This document shows, piece after piece, positions 11,375-18,763 of a stretch of 64,000 nucleotides of DNA. The notes below the pieces were generated by a model. It worked only from the letters and a program-made list of their open reading frames with translations. It ran no database searches and was not told the origin of the DNA. The stretch is from Acidobacteriota bacterium. GTDB lineage: Bacteria > Acidobacteriota > Vicinamibacteria > Vicinamibacterales > UBA2999. The stretch's first letter is position 1. Every line of letters begins with the position of its first letter. Both the position numbers and the translations under genes were made by a program. The stretch covers positions 27,509-91,508 of the forward strand of contig JBKPDL010000006.1 of the NCBI GenBank assembly GCA_046727855.1, written 5' to 3'.

Positions 11375-12745
11375 TCAGGAAAGGGCAGCGATCTCTTTGT
11401 AAAGGTACGCGGAGGCGATGACGCCGTTGTGAAAGTTACCAAGATCGAGCTTTTCGTCGGGAGCGTGGGCGTTTTCGTCGGGCAGTCCCACACCGAACAG
11501 GACGCACGGCAGGCCCAGCTCCTCCTGAAACGTGGCGACCACGGGAATCGAGCCGCCCTCGCGATTGAATAGCGGGCGCTTGCCAAAGCCTTGTTCGATC
11601 GCGCGCGCTGCGGCCTGCACGAATGGATTGTCGAATGCCGTCATCCACGGCCTGCCGCCGTGCATCCGCGTTACCTTCAACTCGACCGTCTTGGGTGTGA
11701 CTTTCTTCACGTACGCTTCGAACAAGTCGCCGATCTTCTGCGGATCCTGATTGGGTACAAGCCGCATGCTCACCTTCGCCATCGCCACGGCTGGAATGAC
11801 CGTCTTGGCGCCCTCGCCGGTAAATCCTGAAAGCAGTCCGTTCACCTCGAACGTCGGTCGGGCCCAGAGGCGCTCGAGCGTCGTGTAGCCGGCTTCGCCG
11901 AATAACTTGGGCGCACCCAGATCCTGCTTGTACTTGCGCTCGTTGAACGGCAGCCTGGCGAATTCCTGGCGCTCTTCGTCGCGCAGCGGCACGACATCGT
12001 CGTAGAAGTTCGGGATCTTGACGCGTCCGCTCTTGTCCTTCATCTGCGCGAGTACTTGTGCCAGAACCATTGCGGGATTGGCAACCGCGCCGCCGAACGA
12101 GCCGGAGTGGAGGTCCGACTTCGTGCCGCGCAAATCGATCTGGAAGTAGGTCAGTCCGCGAAGGCCGTAGCAAATCGACGGCACACCGCGCTCGAACATG
12201 GGCGAGTCGCTGATGACCACGACGTTCGACTTGAGCAGATCCTTGTGCGCGTTGATGAAGTTATCGAGGTTGGCGCTGCCGACTTCTTCCTCGCCCTCGA
12301 GCAGGAACTTCATGTTGACCGGAAGCCTTCCGTTCTGCTTGATGTGCGCTTCGACGGCCTTGAAGTGCATGAAGACCTGACCCTTGTCGTCGGCGGCTCC
12401 GCGTGCGTAGATTTCGCCGTCGCGAATCGTTGCTTCGAACGGCGGCGACGTCCACAGGTTCAAGGGATCGACCGGCTGGACGTCGTAGTGACCGTAAAAC
12501 AGAATCGTGGGCGCGCCGTCGGCGCCGAGCCATTCGCCGTATACAACCGGATGCCCGGGCGTTTCCTCGAGCCGCACATTCTGCAGGCCAATGCGCGTCA
12601 TCTCTGTCTGTGTCCACTCGGCGCAGCGCCTGACATCGGACGCGTGTTGCGGCAGCGCGCTGATGCTCGGGATCGCCAGATACTGTTTGAGTTCTTCGAT
12701 ATAGCGATCGCGGTTGACGTGGATGAAGTCGACGACGTTTTCCAT
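11375..12745 (-). CDS. M20-family metallodipeptidase
   Basis: M20 metal-ligand motifs FYGHYDVQP, ARGAADDKGQ, LLEGEEEVGS. Length is 456 aa. Confidence 0.85.
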   Translation of the reverse strand: MENVVDFIHVNRDRYIEELKQYLAIPSISALPQHASDVRRCAEWTQTEMTRIGLQNVRLEETPGHPVVYGEWLGADGAPTILFYGHYDVQPVDPLNLWTSPPFEATIRDGEIYARGAADDKGQVFMHFKAVEAHIKQNGRLPVNMKFLLEGEEEVGSANLDNFINAHKDLLKSNVVVISDSPMFERGVPSICYGLRGLTYFQIDLRGTKSDLHSGSFGGAVANPAMVLAQVLAQMKDKSGRVKIPNFYDDVVPLRDEERQEFARLPFNERKYKQDLGAPKLFGEAGYTTLERLWARPTFEVNGLLSGFTGEGAKTVIPAVAMAKVSMRLVPNQDPQKIGDLFEAYVKKVTPKTVELKVTRMHGGRPWMTAFDNPFVQAAARAIEQGFGKRPLFNREGGSIPVVATFQEELGLPCVLFGVGLPDENAHAPDEKLDLGNFHNGVIASAYLYKEIAALS

Positions 12746-12796: not shown

Positions 12797-13591
12797 TCAG
12801 TATATCGCCCGCATTTGCCAGCTGTCGCCGACGCGCTGCACCACACCCTCCTGATCGAGTTTCAGCAAGTGCGCGAGCACGCTCTCGCGCGCCATCGGCT
12901 TGAGCGCCGGATCCAGAGCGGTATAGATCCGGCTGGTAATCGCGTCGAGATCGCTGAGGCCCGCCTCGAGCGCGGCCAATACTTGCCGTTCACGAATATG
13001 TCGATGCGTGATGTACTCGCGGATGAGCGTTTGCGGATCTTCGATGGGCGGACCGTGCGCGGGCAACAGCCGGATCGGCGCGAGCGCGCTCACGCGATTG
13101 AGCGACTCGAGGTAAGCGGCCAGGCTGCCGCCGAACGACGCAGGAATCACCACGGTGCTTCCACGCACCACGAGGTCGCCGCTGAATAACGACCGCGTCG
13201 GATCGTGCCAAAGAGAAATATGGTCCGGAGCGTGGCCAGGTGTGTGGATCACCTGGATCGACCCGTCCCCGGCGGTCAGCACATCGCCGTCTGACACGTA
13301 GTGCCATTCGACCGGGTACTTCGAATCGCGCTCGGGCCAGCGCATCTTCGAAAACCGCGCGTTCGGCCAGCGCGCCGCGAGCGCGGCAGCTCCGGACGCA
13401 TGATCGTCATGGGCATGCGTCACCACGACGTGAGCAGGACCATCTGGCACGTGCGCAGCGATGGAATCGAGATGCTCTTGCTTGCCGACGCCGGCGTCGA
13501 TGAGCACAGGCGTCGCTCCGGTCAGCAGATACGTCCAGTTGCCGCTGCCGGTCATCGTTCCCGGATTGCCGGCATGAAGCGGGATGATCAA
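12797..13591 (-). CDS. MBL-fold metallo-hydrolase with C-terminal winged-helix-like tail
   Basis: HxHxDH motif VVVTHAHDDHASG, later HTPGHAPDH. Length is 264 aa. Confidence 0.8.
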   Translation of the reverse strand: MIIPLHAGNPGTMTGSGNWTYLLTGATPVLIDAGVGKQEHLDSIAAHVPDGPAHVVVTHAHDDHASGAAALAARWPNARFSKMRWPERDSKYPVEWHYVSDGDVLTAGDGSIQVIHTPGHAPDHISLWHDPTRSLFSGDLVVRGSTVVIPASFGGSLAAYLESLNRVSALAPIRLLPAHGPPIEDPQTLIREYITHRHIRERQVLAALEAGLSDLDAITSRIYTALDPALKPMARESVLAHLLKLDQEGVVQRVGDSWQMRAIY

Positions 13592-13641
13592 ACAAAAACC
13601 CGGTCACGCGTGGCCCCATCCCGTGAGGCCCGCTACACCCC

Positions 13642-13848
13642 TCAGGTGCCACCAAACCCAATTGTGACGTTGCCGTTTTCGACGATCACCGGCACTTGCC
13701 GGCGGCCACCCGAATACTCGAGCATGCGCGCGAGCGCCGCCGAGTCCTTCTTGACGTTGAAATACTGATGCCGCTGCTGATACTCCTCACGGGCGGCTTG
13801 CGTGTAGGGTCAGGTGTCCTTCCCGAAAATCAGGACAGCATCGGCCAT
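13642..13848 (-). CDS. Glutaredoxin-like (YruB/NrdH-type) small redox protein with in-frame TGA at the active-site Cys position; candidate selenoprotein (68 codons)
   Basis: Hand translation of the minus strand gives MADAVLIFGKDT-TGA-PYTQAAREEYQQRHQYFNVKKDSAALARMLEYSGGRRQVPVIVENGNVTIGFGGT-stop. TGA lies at 13810-13812. The translation aligns with the glutaredoxin pattern (V.IYTK.TCPYC ... TVP.I.. ... GG). It is absent from the ORF track because the TGA splits it into pieces under 60 aa. Confidence 0.65.
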
Positions 13849-13865: not shown

Positions 13866-15014
13866 TCACGACGATCGCGACAAGCTCGCCAGTGCCATCA
13901 CGCACGCCACCGACATAATCGCTGCCGCGCTCAGATACGGCGTTGTCGGCCCGAACCGATCGAAGAGCAAACCGCCCCAGGCGGGACCGACAATGCGCCC
14001 AAGGCTGGCAAGCGATTGCGCAAGACCAAGCACGCCCCCTTGATCGTTCGGATCCGACAGGCGCGAGATCACCGCCGAGAGCGATGGACTATTGAATCCC
14101 ATGCCGCACGCAAGCAACCCGCACGCGGCGAGGAGTACCGGTATTGACTGGGCGAGCGGCACCAGGGCGAGTCCCACCGCGACGACACCCAAGGCAGCGG
14201 GAATCAGGCGATGCTCGCCCGTTACACGCACCACTCGGCCGACGAGCACGCCTTGCACGAACGACAGCACGAACCCGATGAACGCAAACACGTAACCGAT
14301 GTTCGCGCTGGTAAGCCCGAAACGGCGCTCCGTAAACAGTGCAAATGTCGCCTCGAAGCCCGAAAACGCCACGCTGACGACGAAATAGAGGAGCAGCAGA
14401 AGCAGGAGCTTCGGCGTCGCAAACGAGCGGCGAAACAGATCGAACCGGCCGAGCGTCTGGCGCGCGCGGCTGACGGATCGCGACTCAGGCAGCAGAAGCC
14501 AGGCGGCGAGAAAGTTGGCGAAGCAGAGCGCCGATGCGACCCACATCGGCGCCGCGGGGCCAAGGTGCGTGAGTACGCCGCCCAGCGCCGGACCGAAGAT
14601 GAAGCCGAGGCCAAAGGCGGCGCCCACCATGCCCATGCCTCTCGCCCGATTCTCCGGCGTGGTGATGTCCGCAATGTAGGCCTGCGCCGTCGGAATGTTC
14701 GCACCGGCGATACCGCCCACGATTCTAGCGGCGAGGATCAACGCGAGCGAGTCGGCGAGCGCCAGCGCGAGATACGACACGCACGACCCGACCAGCCCAA
14801 TCAGGATGATCGGACGCCGTCCGACGCGATCCGACCAGCGACCCCAGATCGGCGCGAACACGAACTGCATCAACGAATAGACCGTTCCCAACATGCCCAC
14901 CGTGAAGGCGTTGGCGCCGTACGATTCCGCATAGAACGGCAGCAGCGGAATGATGATGCCGAAGCCGAGCAGGTCGATGAAGACCGTGACAAAGATGATG
15001 ACGAGCGGCGACAC
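13866..15014 (-). CDS. MFS transporter (drug/H+ antiporter-like, 12 TM)
   Basis: Hydrophobic profile throughout and the MFS motif-A-like GRWSDRVGRRPI. GTG 15014 lies 1 nt after the pcs stop (15016-15018). The longer track ORF (to 15101) would overlap pcs. Confidence 0.8.
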   Translation of the reverse strand: MSPLVIIFVTVFIDLLGFGIIIPLLPFYAESYGANAFTVGMLGTVYSLMQFVFAPIWGRWSDRVGRRPIILIGLVGSCVSYLALALADSLALILAARIVGGIAGANIPTAQAYIADITTPENRARGMGMVGAAFGLGFIFGPALGGVLTHLGPAAPMWVASALCFANFLAAWLLLPESRSVSRARQTLGRFDLFRRSFATPKLLLLLLLYFVVSVAFSGFEATFALFTERRFGLTSANIGYVFAFIGFVLSFVQGVLVGRVVRVTGEHRLIPAALGVVAVGLALVPLAQSIPVLLAACGLLACGMGFNSPSLSAVISRLSDPNDQGGVLGLAQSLASLGRIVGPAWGGLLFDRFGPTTPYLSAAAIMSVACVMALASLSRSS

Positions 15015-15708: not shown

Positions 15709-15835
15709 TCCCTCAATTCACTCGCGCCGCGAATGGTGGCATCGACGTGATGCGAGTGGATGGGCCGAAACGAGCGGCTTTTCGCACGGCTCGCGCCGTT
15801 GGCGCTACACACTGAAGCGAGCTCCGTTTTTAGAG
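15709..15835 (+). repeat. Intergenic repeat family 1, copy B (about 127 nt)
   Basis: Fills the gap between the pcs start codon (15706-15708) and the ThyX-like gene. The stop codon of the ThyX-like gene (15830-15832) lies in the repeat tail TTTTTAGAG. Confidence 0.8.
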
Positions 15836-17377
15836 CCGGCGCTGAGCGTTGGGGAAACTGTTCCAGACGGGCACACCACAGAAGTGGGTGCCTTCGGTGC
15901 ATCGCGGCGACACCAGCTTGTTCCGCAACACGCAGGGTGGACCAAGGTGGCGCGCGAGGCGCGCGTGAATCGCGCCAACCTGCTCGATTTCGTCCATCGA
16001 CGCCAGGTAGATCTCTTCCTGCGCGTTGAAACAGGTACGTAACGTCCACTTGTGTTGCAGGGCGATCATCGTCCCGGACTCGACCAATCGCAGCGCCTTG
16101 GCGTTGGGCAACACATACAACGCGAATTCGAGCGGGACACCGAGCGAGAGGAGCTTATTCTTGGCCGTCCAGGCGTCCTGCATCGAGCGCTCGTAGACCG
16201 CAAACGCCGCGGGATTCCGCTGGATCAACGTCGGCGTGACGAAATCGGGCGCCGTCGTGTCCGCGAACGTGAGCAGCGGCCGCGAGGCCGGCACCATGCG
16301 ATGACGCTGATCCTGCGAATCGGCGGTGTGACTCAGCCGCTTTTCAAACACGTACGAGGCGTGATGCAACGCCCGCATCATCGGCGAGTGATACGACACG
16401 TTGAGCATGTCGACGCGGTACTTGTTGCGTGCCGGATTCATCACGCGATCGATCGCGTCGTCATCTGACAGCTCGTCGGCCGTGAGGCCAAACGTCGAAC
16501 GCACGGCGTCGGCGACAACCGTTTCCGCATTGGGCGACCAGTCGCGCAGCTTTGAGACACGCCCTTCCAGCCGGCGATCGAAATCGCGAACAAACGCGTC
16601 GCCTTCGGCGCGCGGGCGGGGAAAATTCTTCTCCGGCAGCTCATCGGCCTGCAGCGTCTCGAGGCCAACCTTCTCGAAAAACAGCGGATCGACCCGGTTG
16701 ACCAGATCGACCATACGGCCGATGACCAGCCGCGCTTCGTACGGCGTGTCGCCGGAGCTCAGCATGCGATGAAGGCGATGCAGAACGAGGCCGGAGATCG
16801 TGTGCACCATTGAGGTGAACGCGCCAATCGGCACCACATAACGTGCGGTTTCGATGGCCTTTTTCTCCGCCTCGCGCTCGACCGCTTTCAGACGCTCTGG
16901 CGTGTTGGTGGCGCGTACGTAGCGCAGCTCTTTGAGGATCGCCCACGCGTCGTCTTTGAGAATCGACGACAGCCGCTCGTATGCGTCCCACGCCCGTAGC
17001 ACTTCCTGTTCGTAAACGTCCAGCGCGTCGCCGTCAATCGGCGGCACAAACGCACGCGGTTCCCGCAGCTTGACGTATCGCTGGCTCGACTGCTCCGAGT
17101 TGTAGAACGGATAGCCGTGCAGCACGCTCCACACGAACTGCCTGGAGATGTTCTCCATGCCAAACTCGAAGTGGGCGTGCTGGAAGACGGTGTGATGGCC
17201 GCCGTCAAACGTCAGCGGGCCAATCGAATTGCGCTGCTTTTCGGTAATTTCGGCGGGTGCGATCACGCGAGGCGAGTAGCAGGTGCGCGCCGCCGCAATC
17301 GCTCCGTCATACGGAACCCCCGGAGCATTGCGCAGCGTGATGTTCGGCTCTCCGGTGGCTAGAGCGAGCGTCGGCAT
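15830..17377 (-). CDS. Tandem-domain flavin-dependent thymidylate synthase (ThyX)-like protein, 515 aa
   Basis: There are two ThyX-like halves. Half 1 reads GGHHTVFQHAHFEF...RQFVWSVLHGYPFYNSEQSSQRY (the S-x-R-Y part is kept, the RHR part is lost). Half 2 reads HHASYVFEKRLSHTADSQDQRHRMVPASRP and later NAQEEI (RHR is kept). Confidence 0.7.
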   Translation of the reverse strand: MPTLALATGEPNITLRNAPGVPYDGAIAAARTCYSPRVIAPAEITEKQRNSIGPLTFDGGHHTVFQHAHFEFGMENISRQFVWSVLHGYPFYNSEQSSQRYVKLREPRAFVPPIDGDALDVYEQEVLRAWDAYERLSSILKDDAWAILKELRYVRATNTPERLKAVEREAEKKAIETARYVVPIGAFTSMVHTISGLVLHRLHRMLSSGDTPYEARLVIGRMVDLVNRVDPLFFEKVGLETLQADELPEKNFPRPRAEGDAFVRDFDRRLEGRVSKLRDWSPNAETVVADAVRSTFGLTADELSDDDAIDRVMNPARNKYRVDMLNVSYHSPMMRALHHASYVFEKRLSHTADSQDQRHRMVPASRPLLTFADTTAPDFVTPTLIQRNPAAFAVYERSMQDAWTAKNKLLSLGVPLEFALYVLPNAKALRLVESGTMIALQHKWTLRTCFNAQEEIYLASMDEIEQVGAIHARLARHLGPPCVLRNKLVSPRCTEGTHFCGVPVWNSFPNAQRRL

Positions 17378-17469: not shown

Positions 17470-17519
17470 GTTATGCGGCCACAGACGTGAATTTTGCACA
17501 CGTTGTGGACCCGCATAAC
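17470..17519. other. Long imperfect hairpin (about 19 bp stem, 9-nt AT-rich loop) between def and the ThyX-like gene
   Basis: GTTATGCGG-CCAC-A-G-CGTG pairs with CACG-T-T-GTGG-CCGCATAAC (the G and one T form a wobble pair) around the loop AATTTTGCA, with two small bulges. No T-run follows on either strand. Confidence 0.55.
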
Positions 17520-17636
17520 GGTCTACGGCAGGGCCCTTGGCTAGTTAAGTTAGGTTGTCAGCCCGCGTGCGAGAGCCATCGCATGATGTTTCGCGCGAAC
17601 CGCTCATTGTCGCTAGACGACAGTGCCCGCCAGGGC

Positions 17637-18170
17637 CTAGTCCTCATCGTTGTGGCGTGCGTGATAGCGCGAGAACTCCTCCATATAGGTCAGCGACTCG
17701 AACGAGCGCATACGGTCAAAGAAGAGGATCCCATTCAGATGATCGGTTTCGTGCTGTACGACGCGTGCGGGGAAATCCTTGGCCTCGAACTCAATGCGTT
17801 TTCCGTGCCGATCGAGCGCAACGACGTTGATGTGAAAAGCGCGCGGTACCATGCCGCGAATGTCCGGAATGCTCAGGCATCCCTCCCAGCCCTCGATAGT
17901 CTTGTCACCAATCACCGAGATTTGTGGGTTGATGATCACGGAGGCTTCGCCCTCGGCGCGCCCTTCGGGATCGAGGTGGGCGACAAACAATCGGAGCCCT
18001 TCGTGGATCTGGGGTGCGGCAAGGCCGATGCCCGAATATTCGTGCATCGTCTTGATCATGTCGTCGATCAACTTCTGCATCTGTGGATCCTCGAGCTCCT
18101 GCTTGTCGATCGGACGTGCCTTCTGGCGCAGCACCGGGTGCCCCATGCGCGCCACTTTCAGGATGGACAT
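17637..18170 (-). CDS. def: Peptide deformylase
   Basis: Three canonical motifs: GIGLAAPQI, EGCLSIP, HETDHLNG. Confidence 0.93.
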   Translation of the reverse strand: MSILKVARMGHPVLRQKARPIDKQELEDPQMQKLIDDMIKTMHEYSGIGLAAPQIHEGLRLFVAHLDPEGRAEGEASVIINPQISVIGDKTIEGWEGCLSIPDIRGMVPRAFHINVVALDRHGKRIEFEAKDFPARVVQHETDHLNGILFFDRMRSFESLTYMEEFSRYHARHNDED

Positions 18171-18184
18171 GAAGGAAATCTTAT

Positions 18185-18763
18185 ATGGTCGCGGCCCTGA
18201 CGGTCCGCGCTACAGTACGGCGGTTGCACTCCCACGATCTCACGCCGCCCTATCGGTTCTGCCCCGTCTGTGGCAGTGCGCTCGAAGCACGGGTGCTCAA
18301 GGCCTCCGAGCCCAAGCGGCTGGTGTGCGTCAACGCAGCGTGTGGATTCGTGTTCTATCTCGACCCGAAGATCGCCGTCGGCACCGTCATCCGTATGAAC
18401 GGCGATATCGTGCTGGTCCGGCGCGCGATTGAGCCTGGATACGGCAAGTGGGTGTTTCCCGGCGGTTATGTCGATCGCGGCGAAGAGATCACGCTCGCGG
18501 CCATTCGCGAAGCGCGCGAAGAATCGGGCCTCGACGTGCGCATCGATCACCTGATCAACATCTATTCCTACGCTGGACGAACGCCGATCGTGGTCGTCTA
18601 TGCCGCAACGTGCATCGGTGGCACGCTCACGGTGGACGACGAAGGCCTCGAGGCGAAGGCCTTTGTGCCCGCGGCAATTCCGTGGGATGAGCTCGCGTTC
18701 CGCAGCACTCGCGAAGCGCTCACCGATTATCTGAACTCCGTGTCACTACACGGCCGCCGGTAA
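18185..18763 (+). CDS. NUDIX hydrolase with N-terminal zinc-ribbon
   Basis: CPVCGS...CVNAACG zinc ribbon. Nudix box GGYVDRGEEITLAAIREAREESGL. Confidence 0.85.
   Translation: MVAALTVRATVRRLHSHDLTPPYRFCPVCGSALEARVLKASEPKRLVCVNAACGFVFYLDPKIAVGTVIRMNGDIVLVRRAIEPGYGKWVFPGGYVDRGEEITLAAIREAREESGLDVRIDHLINIYSYAGRTPIVVVYAATCIGGTLTVDDEGLEAKAFVPAAIPWDELAFRSTREALTDYLNSVSLHGRR

What the first reader, a model, noticed from the sequence alone, without database searches (positions are those of the whole stretch)
13642..13848. Unannotated glutaredoxin-like gene with TGA at the active-site cysteine position (T-U-P-Y-T): probable selenoprotein
Seen in sequence:
- The minus strand reads ATG GCC GAT GCT GTC CTG ATT TTC GGG AAG GAC ACC TGA CCC TAC ACG ...
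- This translates to MADAVLIFGKDT-U-PYTQAAREEYQQRHQYFNVKKDSAALARMLEYSGGRRQVPVIVENGNVTIGFGGT-stop.
- The frame stays open for 55 further codons after the TGA and ends at a second TGA (13642-13644).

Established knowledge:
- Small glutaredoxin/NrdH/YruB-type proteins have the pattern beta1-(T/G)CPYC-helix ... (T/Q)VP-beta3 ... GG. For example, E. coli Grx3 reads VEIYTKETCPYCHRAK...TVPQIFI...GG.
- Here every element aligns, and the TGA sits exactly where the nucleophilic Cys should be. The resolving Cys is replaced by Thr (a UxxT motif).
- Thioredoxin-fold proteins are the commonest bacterial selenoprotein class.

Inference:
- TGA is decoded as selenocysteine.
- Downstream RNA can form GCCGC...GCGGC (5 bp, starting 16 nt from the U of UGA) enclosing a 3-bp inner stem with a GGAGUA apical loop 24-32 nt from UGA. 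That distance and G-rich loop are compatible with a bacterial SECIS, although the fold is weak.
- The gene lies in the pcs - MFS - grx-like - MBL hydrolase - M20 dipeptidase string, all on the same strand.
Basis: partly seen in the sequence, partly recalled or inferred. Interest (0 to 1): 0.72.

Follow-up and report, generated by a model that had tools for sequence, protein, structure and literature searches.

The report
Known two-selenocysteine glutaredoxin-like gene

Summary
The sequence is exactly as described. With U read as C, the product matches NCBIfam NF041114 "UXX-star selenoprotein family 1" over the whole model at 117.7 bits against a cutoff of 72. A 2026 review already lists this family with a UxxT motif and 2 Sec residues.

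The second TGA (13644-13642) is followed by GGG GTG TAG, so the protein ends ...GFGGT-U-G-V. Of 201 related loci, 196 have a TGA at this position, and in 194 of those 196 a stop follows exactly two codons later. A SECIS-like hairpin follows that TGA, with its loop 24 nt downstream as in E. coli fdhF: 142/195 loci against about 7/195 shuffles.

The first TGA (13812-13810) is also credible. In 117 of 118 complete metagenomic copies with TGA there, the frame reads through to the conserved C-terminus. TGA-forms carry a synonymous-site signature, GCY-CGK-GAR, that Cys-forms lack (p about 1e-24), and the window has it. Its local fold is weak, however.

No Sec machinery lies in the 64 kb window. Verdict: genuine but already known. 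Function is uncharacterised; a Sec13-Sec69 diselenide is my inference.

The parts
13633..13848 (-). Complete coding sequence of a UXX-star family 1 glutaredoxin-like selenoprotein. It has 71 residues: MADAVLIFGKDT-U-PYTQAAREEYQQRHQYFNVKKDSAALARMLEYSGGRRQVPVIVENGNVTIGFGGT-U-GV. The start is ATG at 13848-13846 and the stop is TAG at 13635-13633.
   Evidence: Searches give the sequence. One search gives NF041114.2 at 117.7 bits against a cutoff of 72, matching profile positions 1-70 of 70. Without the three tail residues the match covers only 1-67 of 70 at 108.6 bits.
13810..13812 (-). First Sec codon (UGA, residue 13), at the nucleophile position of the [C/U]-P-Y-T active-site motif.
   Evidence: Searches show the codon; 117 of 118 complete metagenomic loci with TGA at this codon read through to the conserved ...G[FY]GG[TS] end; homologues carry Cys (TGC/TGT) at the same column.
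13770..13797 (-). Putative SECIS-1, inside the coding sequence, at nt 16-43 counted from the U of the first UGA. It has an outer stem G16-C20 / G39-C43 and a conserved core GCC-CGU-GAG (nt 19-27 = 13794-13786) carrying G23 and U24.
   Evidence: Sec-forms have GCY CGK GAR at codons 19-21. Arg20 is CGC in 0/115 Sec-forms against 41/63 Cys-forms (p = 1.4e-24), and the Ala19 third base is a pyrimidine in 117/118 against 24/78 (p = 4e-28); the outer stem is present in 25/118 Sec-forms, the window included, against 1/78 Cys-forms. The fold itself is weak: -13.9 kcal/mol, z = -0.67.
13642..13644 (-). Second Sec codon (UGA, residue 69). This is the 'U' of the family-defining C-terminal U-X-X-stop.
   Evidence: 196 of 201 family loci have a TGA here, whether codon 13 is Cys or Sec; in 194 of those 196 a stop follows exactly two codons later. 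The +1 codon is Gly in 150 loci (GGG/GGC/GGA/GGT) and the +2 codon is Val in 174 (GTC/GTG/GTT/GTA). That is wobble-position variation with the amino acid conserved, as expected of coding sequence.
13608..13633 (-). SECIS-2, a hairpin 3' of the second UGA, at nt 12-37 from its U. It has a 7-bp upper stem (15-21/27-33), 3 further pairs below a bulged A34, and the apical loop C22-G23-G24-G25-A26 (13623-13619).
   Evidence: -21.8 kcal/mol. The E. coli fdhF SECIS loop is G22-G23-U24-C25, so the spacing is the same; a hairpin is present in 190/195 loci, the median loop centre is 24 nt from the U, GG or GU lies in or beside the loop in 178/190, and a T-run follows in only 2; 142/195 loci meet strict criteria against 6-9 of 195 in dinucleotide shuffles; the hairpin is not picked up as a terminator.

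Best explanation
The locus encodes a 71-residue, minimal glutaredoxin-fold selenoprotein of the catalogued 'UXX-star selenoprotein family 1' (NCBIfam NF041114, also called 'Distant Grx-like protein 1'). It has two selenocysteines.

Shown here:
- Both UGA codons sit at positions where the family conserves either Cys/Sec (residue 13, motif [C/U]PYT) or Sec (residue 69, U-G-V-stop).
- The reading frame and the protein sequence are conserved across both UGAs in about 200 relatives.
- The second UGA is followed by a strong hairpin with G-G or G-U in an apical loop 24 nt downstream, the same geometry as the E. coli fdhF SECIS.
- The first UGA is followed by a stretch whose synonymous sites are constrained only in TGA-bearing copies (GCY-CGK-GAR, again placing G23-K24), plus a subgroup-specific outer stem that the window shares.

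Inferred:
- SelB with Sec-tRNA(Sec) is recruited separately by each element, and the ribosome inserts Sec at both UGAs.
- Termination occurs at the TAG 9 nt after the second UGA. At that position the hairpin loop is only about 15 nt away, which is outside the SECIS spacing window.
- The fold ends directly after strand beta4 and the GG motif. A homologue model shows beta1-alpha1-beta2-alpha2-beta3-beta4 with no C-terminal helix. In glutaredoxins the GG motif lines the active site.
- I therefore propose that the flexible C-terminal Sec69 acts as the resolving partner missing from the U-P-Y-T motif. It would form a reversible Sec13-Sec69 diselenide, or a selenenylsulfide in CPYT relatives, much as the C-terminal GCUG tail does in animal thioredoxin reductase.
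- A metal- or metalloid-binding role for the two Sec, as suggested in the review, is the main functional alternative.
For: - Family membership: (117.7 bits against a cutoff of 72, full-length 1-70/70).
- Literature. [quoted passage not shown]
- Read-through conservation at UGA-1: (117 of 118).
- C-terminal U-X-X-stop: (TGA at this position in 196/201 loci; stop exactly at +3 in 194/196; wobble-position variation in the Gly and Val codons).
- SECIS-2: (142/195 against about 7/195 in shuffles; loop centre 24 nt; the window hairpin at -21.8 kcal/mol meets all four criteria of the bSECIS consensus quoted).
- SECIS-1 signature.
- Syntenic orthologues with either Sec (L168, L142) or Cys (L045, L061) at codon 13.
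- Standard genetic code: the upstream MFS gene ends in TGA at 13866-13868.
- Fold. The AF2 model of the 73%-identical homologue P0004 has pLDDT 90. Its best PDB neighbours are glutaredoxins, NrdH and BC3987 (TM 0.78-0.84). There is no helix after beta4.
Against: - No selA, selB, selD or tRNA-Sec lies in the 64 kb window. This is uninformative about the whole genome, but it leaves the machinery unverified.
- SECIS-1 in this copy is thermodynamically weak (z = -0.67). It fails the 4-bp or longer upper-stem criterion of the bSECIS consensus under either candidate fold.
- Two of the four syntenic relatives compared at codon 13 (L045, L061) carry Cys there.
- There is no experimental evidence for Sec insertion (75Se labelling or mass spectrometry) for any family member that I could find.
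- The diselenide mechanism rests on fold reasoning only. The predicted structure was of a homologue lacking the three tail residues, and no inter-residue distance could be measured.
Confidence: 0.88

Rival explanations
1. The protein has a single Sec at residue 13 (a UxxT glutaredoxin-like protein), is 68 residues long, and terminates at the second TGA (13644-13642).
For: The second TGA is the next in-frame stop codon. TGA is used as an ordinary stop in this genome, for example by the MFS gene at 13866-13868. Gene callers end all Cys-form homologues at ...GGT.
Against: -: in 194 of 196 loci a stop follows exactly two codons after this TGA, and the two intervening codons show Gly and Val/Ile conservation with wobble variation, a coding signature.
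- a SECIS-geometry hairpin follows (142/195 against about 7/195 in shuffles), and only 2 are followed by T-runs, so these are not terminators.
- adding the three residues C-G-V extends the match to the whole curated model (1-70/70) and adds 9 bits.
- the published catalogue lists 2 Sec for this family.
Confidence: 0.06
2. This copy is a pseudogene. A Cys-form gene (TGC) suffered a single-base nonsense mutation to TGA at codon 13, translation stops after 12 residues, and the rest of the frame has simply not yet decayed.
For: Two syntenic relatives in the species-representative genome set (L045 and L061, with the neighbouring M20 dipeptidase 84-85% identical) have TGC at this codon. TGC to TGA is one substitution. 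The SECIS-1 fold in this copy is no better than shuffled sequence. This copy also has a 3-residue deletion in the alpha1-beta2 loop relative to the family consensus.
Against: -: the window carries the Sec-form-specific synonymous signature GCC-CGT-GAG, whereas Cys-forms mostly have GCG-CGC-GAC and CGC is never seen in 115 Sec-forms.
- the window also has the class II outer stem, seen in 25/118 Sec-forms against 1/78 Cys-forms. A recent nonsense hit in a Cys-form would not bring these features along.
- other syntenic orthologues (L168, L142) are Sec-forms with the same signature.
- the downstream frame, the invariant residues, the U-G-V tail and SECIS-2 are all intact.
- short deletions in the same loop occur in intact homologues (P0025, P0028).
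Confidence: 0.04
3. The first TGA is an artefact, either a sequencing or assembly error or non-Sec read-through (for example near-cognate Trp or Cys insertion), and only the C-terminal UGA is a true Sec codon.
For: The source appears to be an environmental genome. An identical neighbouring protein occurs on a JGI metagenome contig, and single-base errors happen in such assemblies. SECIS-1 is weak.
Against: At least 120 independent contigs from many metagenomes carry the same TGA. The Sec-form-specific synonymous constraints argue for a dedicated RNA element downstream of it, and the window's sequence matches that class precisely.
Confidence: 0.02

Closest known systems
NCBIfam NF041114 'UXX-star selenoprotein family 1', also called 'Distant Grx-like protein 1' (Zhang & Gladyshev 2008, as catalogued in the review PMC13188914)
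   Same: The match covers the full model and is above the curated cutoff. The [C/U]PYT motif, the C-terminal U-X-X-stop, the length of about 70 residues and the two Sec residues all agree.
   Different: Nothing essential differs. This copy has a 3-residue deletion in the alpha1-beta2 loop (QQRH---QYF) and a 5-bp rather than 6-bp outer stem in SECIS-1.
Sister families: UXX-star (seleno)protein families 2 and 3 (NF041211, NF047338) and the HUGP/GUXX-star fusion selenoprotein (NF045501)
   Same: They share the glutaredoxin-like scaffold and a C-terminal Sec-X-X-stop.
   Different: The scores are far below their cutoffs: 46.6 against 100, 44.2 against 97, and 46.8 against 325. The gene is not a member of these families.
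Classical dithiol glutaredoxins and NrdH-redoxins (E. coli Grx3, PDB 3grx; E. coli NrdH, PDB 1h75; Clostridium cGrx1, PDB 7c10/7c12; B. cereus BC3987, PDB 3zij)
   Same: The fold core is the same: beta1-alpha1-beta2-alpha2-beta3-beta4, with TM 0.78-0.84. The nucleophile sits at the N-terminus of helix 1, followed by Pro-Tyr. The VP (cis-Pro) and GG motifs are present. Pfam PF00462 is matched.
   Different: - There is no second Cys in the CxxC position; it is Thr.
- There is no C-terminal helix: only 56 of 80 positions of the Grx3 model are matched.
- A C-terminal Sec tail is present instead.
- The scores are below the curated cutoffs for Grx3, YruB and NrdH.
E. coli fdhF SECIS (the reference bacterial SECIS)
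   Same: A hairpin lies immediately 3' of the UGA, with the apical loop at nt 22-25/26 from the U and G23 followed by U or G at position 24. GGUC, the loop of fdhF, is also the second most common SECIS-2 loop in the family.
   Different: SECIS-2 lies almost entirely in the 3' untranslated region, because only two codons follow the UGA. The stem sequences are unrelated. No bulged U17 equivalent was examined.
C-terminal redox tail of animal thioredoxin reductase (-Gly-Cys-Sec-Gly) and the UxxU diselenide of SelL (recalled from established knowledge, not tested here)
   Same: In both, a Sec close to the C-terminus or a pair of Sec residues serves as a mobile redox centre. This is the analogy behind the proposed Sec13-Sec69 diselenide.
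   Different: The folds are unrelated. Here the partner residue sits 56 residues away in the sequence. The comparison is an analogy only.

Membership tests
UXX-star selenoprotein family 1 (NCBIfam NF041114.2, equivalog) | The HMM score is at or above the curated cutoff (72 bits), with a full-length match. | tested here: met
   117.7 bits, E = 1.9e-34, residues 5-71 aligned to profile 1-70 of 70 (U entered as C); 108.6 bits without the tail.
UXX-star selenoprotein family 1 (NCBIfam NF041114.2, equivalog) | The C-terminus is Sec-X-X-stop (TGA, two sense codons, then a stop). | tested here: met
   TGA GGG GTG TAG at 13644-13633; the same architecture is found in 194-196 of about 200 relatives.
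UXX-star selenoprotein family 1 (NCBIfam NF041114.2, equivalog) | A [C/U]-x-x-T active-site motif at the N-terminus of helix 1 of a glutaredoxin-like fold (the review lists UxxT). | tested here: met
   T-U-P-Y-T; the column is invariant C/P/Y/T in homologues; helix 1 starts at residue 14 in the homologue model.
UXX-star selenoprotein family 1 (NCBIfam NF041114.2, equivalog) | Selenocysteine is actually incorporated at the UGA codons. | not testable with these tools
   This needs 75Se labelling or mass spectrometry. I found no experimental report.
Bacterial selenoprotein gene (general) | The host genome encodes selA, selB, selD and tRNA-Sec. | tested here: inconclusive
   None was found in the 64 kb window (for tRNA, tblastn with E. 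coli SelA/B/D). The rest of the genome is not available.
Bacterial SECIS consensus (bSECISearch model as quoted in PMC13188914), applied to the element after UGA-2 | A 3-9 nt apical loop; a 4-16 bp upper stem; a G in the first two loop positions, usually followed by G or U; 16-37 nt between the UGA and the loop; MFE of -7.5 kcal/mol or lower. | tested here: met
   loop CGGGA (5 nt), a 7-bp upper stem, 18 nt of spacing, -21.8 kcal/mol.
Bacterial SECIS consensus (same model), applied to the element after UGA-1 | The same four criteria. | tested here: inconclusive
   The spacing, the G-G or G-U in the loop and the energy are satisfied (-12.6 kcal/mol for the 48-nt MFE fold; -9.1 for the outer stem plus GUGA mini-hairpin). 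The upper stem, however, has only 2-3 bp. Comparative synonymous-site evidence supports an RNA element here.
Classical glutaredoxin 3 (TIGR02181), YruB-type (TIGR02196) and NrdH (TIGR02194) | A score above the curated cutoff, and a CxxC dithiol motif. | tested here: not met
   28.1 against 90, 32.6 against 88.55, and 17.3 against 85.75 bits. The motif is UPYT, not CPYC or CVQC.

The most novel reading that the evidence does not exclude
The two selenocysteines form a catalytic intramolecular diselenide in the smallest known glutaredoxin fold, with the three-residue C-terminal tail swinging onto the active site. In addition, the first UGA is decoded through an unusually minimal in-frame SECIS. 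Half of the Sec-forms have only two base pairs closing the pentaloop at nt 22-26, which contains a GNRA-like G23-K24-G25-A26 stretch. The determinant of this element would then be mostly primary sequence (GCY-CGK-GAR) rather than a stable stem. Either point would be new biochemistry for a family that is so far only catalogued.
Probability: 0.3. Interest if true: 0.5.

Novelty: already known. Interest (0 to 1): 0.22.

Why it matters
The result matters for annotation. Standard gene callers either miss this gene altogether or, for its Cys-form relatives, truncate it by three residues at the C-terminal UGA. All 40 of the top database homologues I inspected end at ...GGT. Recognising the gene shows that this probable Acidobacteriota genome uses selenocysteine.

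The result does not matter for discovery. The family, its UxxT motif and its two Sec residues are already in NCBIfam and in a published selenoproteome catalogue. What remains open is biochemical: the function of the family, whether the two Sec form a diselenide or bind a metal or metalloid, and how the weakly structured first SECIS works.

Tried and rejected
- **Genome-collection scan.** The tool chose the peptide pattern I[FY]GKD[TSM]CPY, which contains the Cys, so it returned only Cys-forms.
- **MAFFT alignment of the 3' hairpins.** The stems share no sequence, so the alignment was unusable for covariation. I replaced it with per-sequence folding, position statistics and a shuffle control. 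I did not build a covariance model.
- **Thermodynamic comparison after codon 13.** Cys-forms fold slightly better than Sec-forms (-15.4 against -13.4 kcal/mol), so minimum free energy alone does not reveal SECIS-1. The signal is in synonymous sites.
- **Structure prediction of the window's own protein.** No Sec13-Sec69 distance could be obtained.
- The cluster look-up and the family scan both rejected the sequence, so I could not check whether the exact protein is already deposited.
- **Literature not held.** The Haft & Tolstoy 2025 paper on UXX-star neighbourhoods is not in the library.
- **Rfam.** No relevant family was found.
- **Window-wide scan for other UGA plus SECIS-like sites.** It gave 54 hits. 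The nine I translated are Arg-rich off-frame ORFs, not genes.
- **Search for a conserved functional neighbour.** The thyX / MFS / UXX-star / MBL / M20 order is shared, in whole or in part, with only a few close relatives (L045, L061, L168, L009, L037). Across the family the neighbours vary: ABC ATPase in 18 loci, MBL in 10, a kinase-like protein in 9. I therefore drew no functional inference.
- **PDB sequence search.** Only a marginal glutaredoxin hit was found (7c12, E = 0.007).

Full report
**1. Observation**

It translates to MADAVLIFGKDT*PYTQAAREEYQQRHQYFNVKKDSAALARMLEYSGGRRQVPVIVENGNVTIGFGGT*. The in-frame TGA is at 13812-13810 and the next in-frame TGA is at 13644-13642. The upstream MFS gene stops with TGA at 13866-13868, so TGA is an ordinary stop in this genome. 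The window has 63% G+C.

**2. What it is**

With C entered for U, the 68-residue product hits NCBIfam NF041114.2 'UXX-star selenoprotein family 1' at 108.6 bits against a curated cutoff of 72. The parent model NF041212 scores 80.4 bits against a cutoff of 66. Pfam sees only a generic glutaredoxin domain.

The match stopped at profile position 67 of 70. This suggested that 'UXX-star' means Sec-X-X-stop at the C-terminus. The DNA after the second TGA is GGG GTG TAG. Adding C-G-V makes the match full length (1-70/70) at 117.7 bits.

The gene therefore spans 13848-13633. It encodes 71 residues and contains two UGA codons, at residues 13 and 69.

**3. Relatives**

A protein search returned 905 homologues. 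All of the best 120 have C-P-Y-T at the active site, and all 40 that I inspected end at ...GGT. These are gene-caller products truncated at the C-terminal UGA.

A genome-collection scan returned 80 Cys-form loci. Most are Vicinamibacterales or other Acidobacteriota MAGs, with some Anaeromyxobacter and other deltaproteobacteria. The tool's search pattern contained the Cys, so this scan cannot report Sec-forms.

In 117 of the 118 complete ones the frame reads through the TGA and encodes the conserved family sequence to ...G[FY]GG[TS].

Across all 201 loci, 196 have a further TGA at the C-terminus, whether codon 13 is TGA, TGC or TGT. In 194 of those 196 a stop follows exactly two codons later. 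The intervening codons are Gly (GGG 73, GGC 59, GGA 11, GGT 7) and Val (GTC 91, GTG 50, GTT 30, GTA 3) or Ile. This is amino-acid conservation with wobble variation, which is a coding signature.

**4. SECIS after the second UGA**

A hairpin of at least 5 bp is present in 190 of 195 loci. Its loop centre has a median of 24 nt from the U of the UGA (interquartile range 23-25). GG or GU lies in or next to the loop in 178 of 190. Only 2 are followed by a T-run, so these hairpins are not terminators.

I then applied strict criteria: at least 6 bp, a 3-6 nt loop centred at nt 22-26, and G[GU] in the loop. These are met by 142 of 195 loci, against 6-9 of 195 in dinucleotide shuffles.

The window's element (13633-13608) has a 7-bp upper stem, three more pairs below a bulged A, the loop C22-G23-G24-G25-A26, and an energy of -21.8 kcal/mol. 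It satisfies all four criteria of the published bacterial SECIS consensus.

For comparison I extracted the E. coli fdhF SECIS. Its loop is G22-G23-U24-C25, counted the same way. GGUC is also the second most frequent loop in this family.

**5. SECIS after the first UGA**

In this copy the fold is weak: -13.9 kcal/mol and z = -0.67. As a group, Sec-forms do not fold better here than Cys-forms.

Synonymous sites, however, separate the two forms sharply.
- In Sec-forms codons 19-21 are GCY CGK GAR.
- Arg20 is CGT in 89 and CGG in 26, and never CGC (0/115). In Cys-forms it is CGC in 41 of 63 (p = 1.4e-24).
- The Ala19 third base is a pyrimidine in 117/118 Sec-forms against 24/78 Cys-forms (p = 4e-28).

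This puts G23-K24 at the same distance from the UGA as in SECIS-2 and in fdhF. Positions 21 and 27 co-vary (C-G 81, U-A 15, U-G 8), although most of the U-A cases appear to belong to one clade.

Below this core the Sec-forms fall into three groups:
- 40 have a continuous local stem.
- 25 have an outer stem GCCGCC/GGCGGC at nt 16-21/38-43. Only 1 of 78 Cys-forms has it.
- 53 have other arrangements.

The window has GCC-CGT-GAG and 5 of the 6 outer-stem pairs, so it is a typical member of the second group. The GGAGUA loop is probably not the conserved determinant.

**6. Orthology and the pseudogene question**

The order on the minus strand is ThiI, def (17637-18170), a thyX-like gene with two Thy1 domains (15830-17377, not 'pcs'), a Tet-like MFS transporter, the selenoprotein gene, an MBL-fold hydrolase and an M20 dipeptidase. 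A NUDIX gene sits on the plus strand among them.

Syntenic loci include Cys-forms (L045 and L061, with the M20 protein 84-85% identical) and Sec-forms (L168, L142). Cys and Sec therefore interchange among orthologues, as in many selenoprotein families.

The window carries the Sec-form RNA signature, not the Cys-form codons. This argues against a recent TGC-to-TGA nonsense mutation.

Across the family as a whole the neighbourhood is not conserved.

**7. Fold and mechanism**

An AF2 model of a 73%-identical Cys-form homologue (pLDDT 90) shows beta1-alpha1-beta2-alpha2-beta3-beta4 and then ends. Its best PDB neighbours are small glutaredoxins, NrdH and BC3987, with TM 0.78-0.84.

The classical C-terminal helix is missing. 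Only 56 of 80 positions of the Grx3 model align.

In glutaredoxins the GG motif after beta4 lines the active site; this is established knowledge, not tested here. The motif lacks a resolving Cys (U-P-Y-T), and the C-terminal Sec is nearly invariant. From these points I infer that Sec69 is the resolving partner of residue 13, forming a diselenide in this copy. The review instead suggests a metal-ligand role. Neither has been tested.

**8. Known or new**

[quoted passage not shown] It cites Haft & Tolstoy 2025 for the sister families. The kind of gene, its motif and its double-Sec nature are therefore already known. This locus is one more member.

**9. Limits**

- No selA, selB, selD or tRNA-Sec lies in the window. 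No Rfam family applies.
- Sec insertion has not been shown experimentally for this family, as far as I could find.
- A window-wide search for further UGA plus SECIS candidates produced only noise.

**Verdict**

The novelty is low.

Noticed in passing
TIGR02170 thyX scores 84.8 bits, just below its cutoff of 87.9. This is an unusually long, duplicated form. Orthologues at 69-74% identity sit next to the selenoprotein gene in L009, L037 and L168.
   Followed up: partly
window 17487-18200 (+) versus 17637-18170 (-): The 237-residue plus-strand ORF has no family hit, yet it gave tblastn matches in 44 loci. It is the antisense shadow of the peptide deformylase gene (PF01327, 182 bits) on the minus strand. 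This shows how high G+C produces long, apparently 'conserved' spurious ORFs here.
   Followed up: yes
family loci L002-L201, three codons after the C-terminal Sec codon: In 95 of 196 loci the true stop, two codons after the Sec-UGA, is itself TGA (UGA-X-X-UGA). Two identical codons 9 nt apart are then read differently. Presumably this is because the single hairpin puts its loop 24 nt from the first UGA but only 15 nt from the second. This would be a natural test case for SECIS spacing rules.
   Followed up: partly
protein database hits P0001-P0120: All 120 best homologues have CPYT, and all 40 inspected end at ...GG[T]. These are gene-caller products cut three residues short at the C-terminal UGA. 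Some carry the NCBI name 'UXX-star selenoprotein family 1' even though the stored sequence lacks the U-X-X tail.
   Followed up: partly
window 13750-13770 (-), residues 24-30: This copy lacks three residues in the alpha1-beta2 loop relative to the family consensus (QQRH---QYF against xRxVPFxY). Shorter deletions occur at the same place in P0025 and P0028, so the loop tolerates length change.
   Followed up: no
L001 (JGI metagenome 3300062131, contig Ga0586910_0344903): A 2.4 kb metagenome contig encodes an M20 dipeptidase identical over all 456 residues to the window's (11375-12745). The same or a very close organism is therefore present in that sample. The best named relatives of the neighbourhood are uncultured Acidobacteriota MAGs (L045, L061).
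   Followed up: partly
window 12797-13591 (-): The gene immediately downstream is an MBL-fold hydrolase with a BLACT_WH domain. Its best NCBIfam hit is hydroxyacylglutathione hydrolase GloB, but far below the cutoff (63 against 200.8 bits). A relative lies within 3 kb on the same strand in 17 family loci. A thiol-ester link to the glutaredoxin-like protein is conceivable but unsupported.
   Followed up: partly
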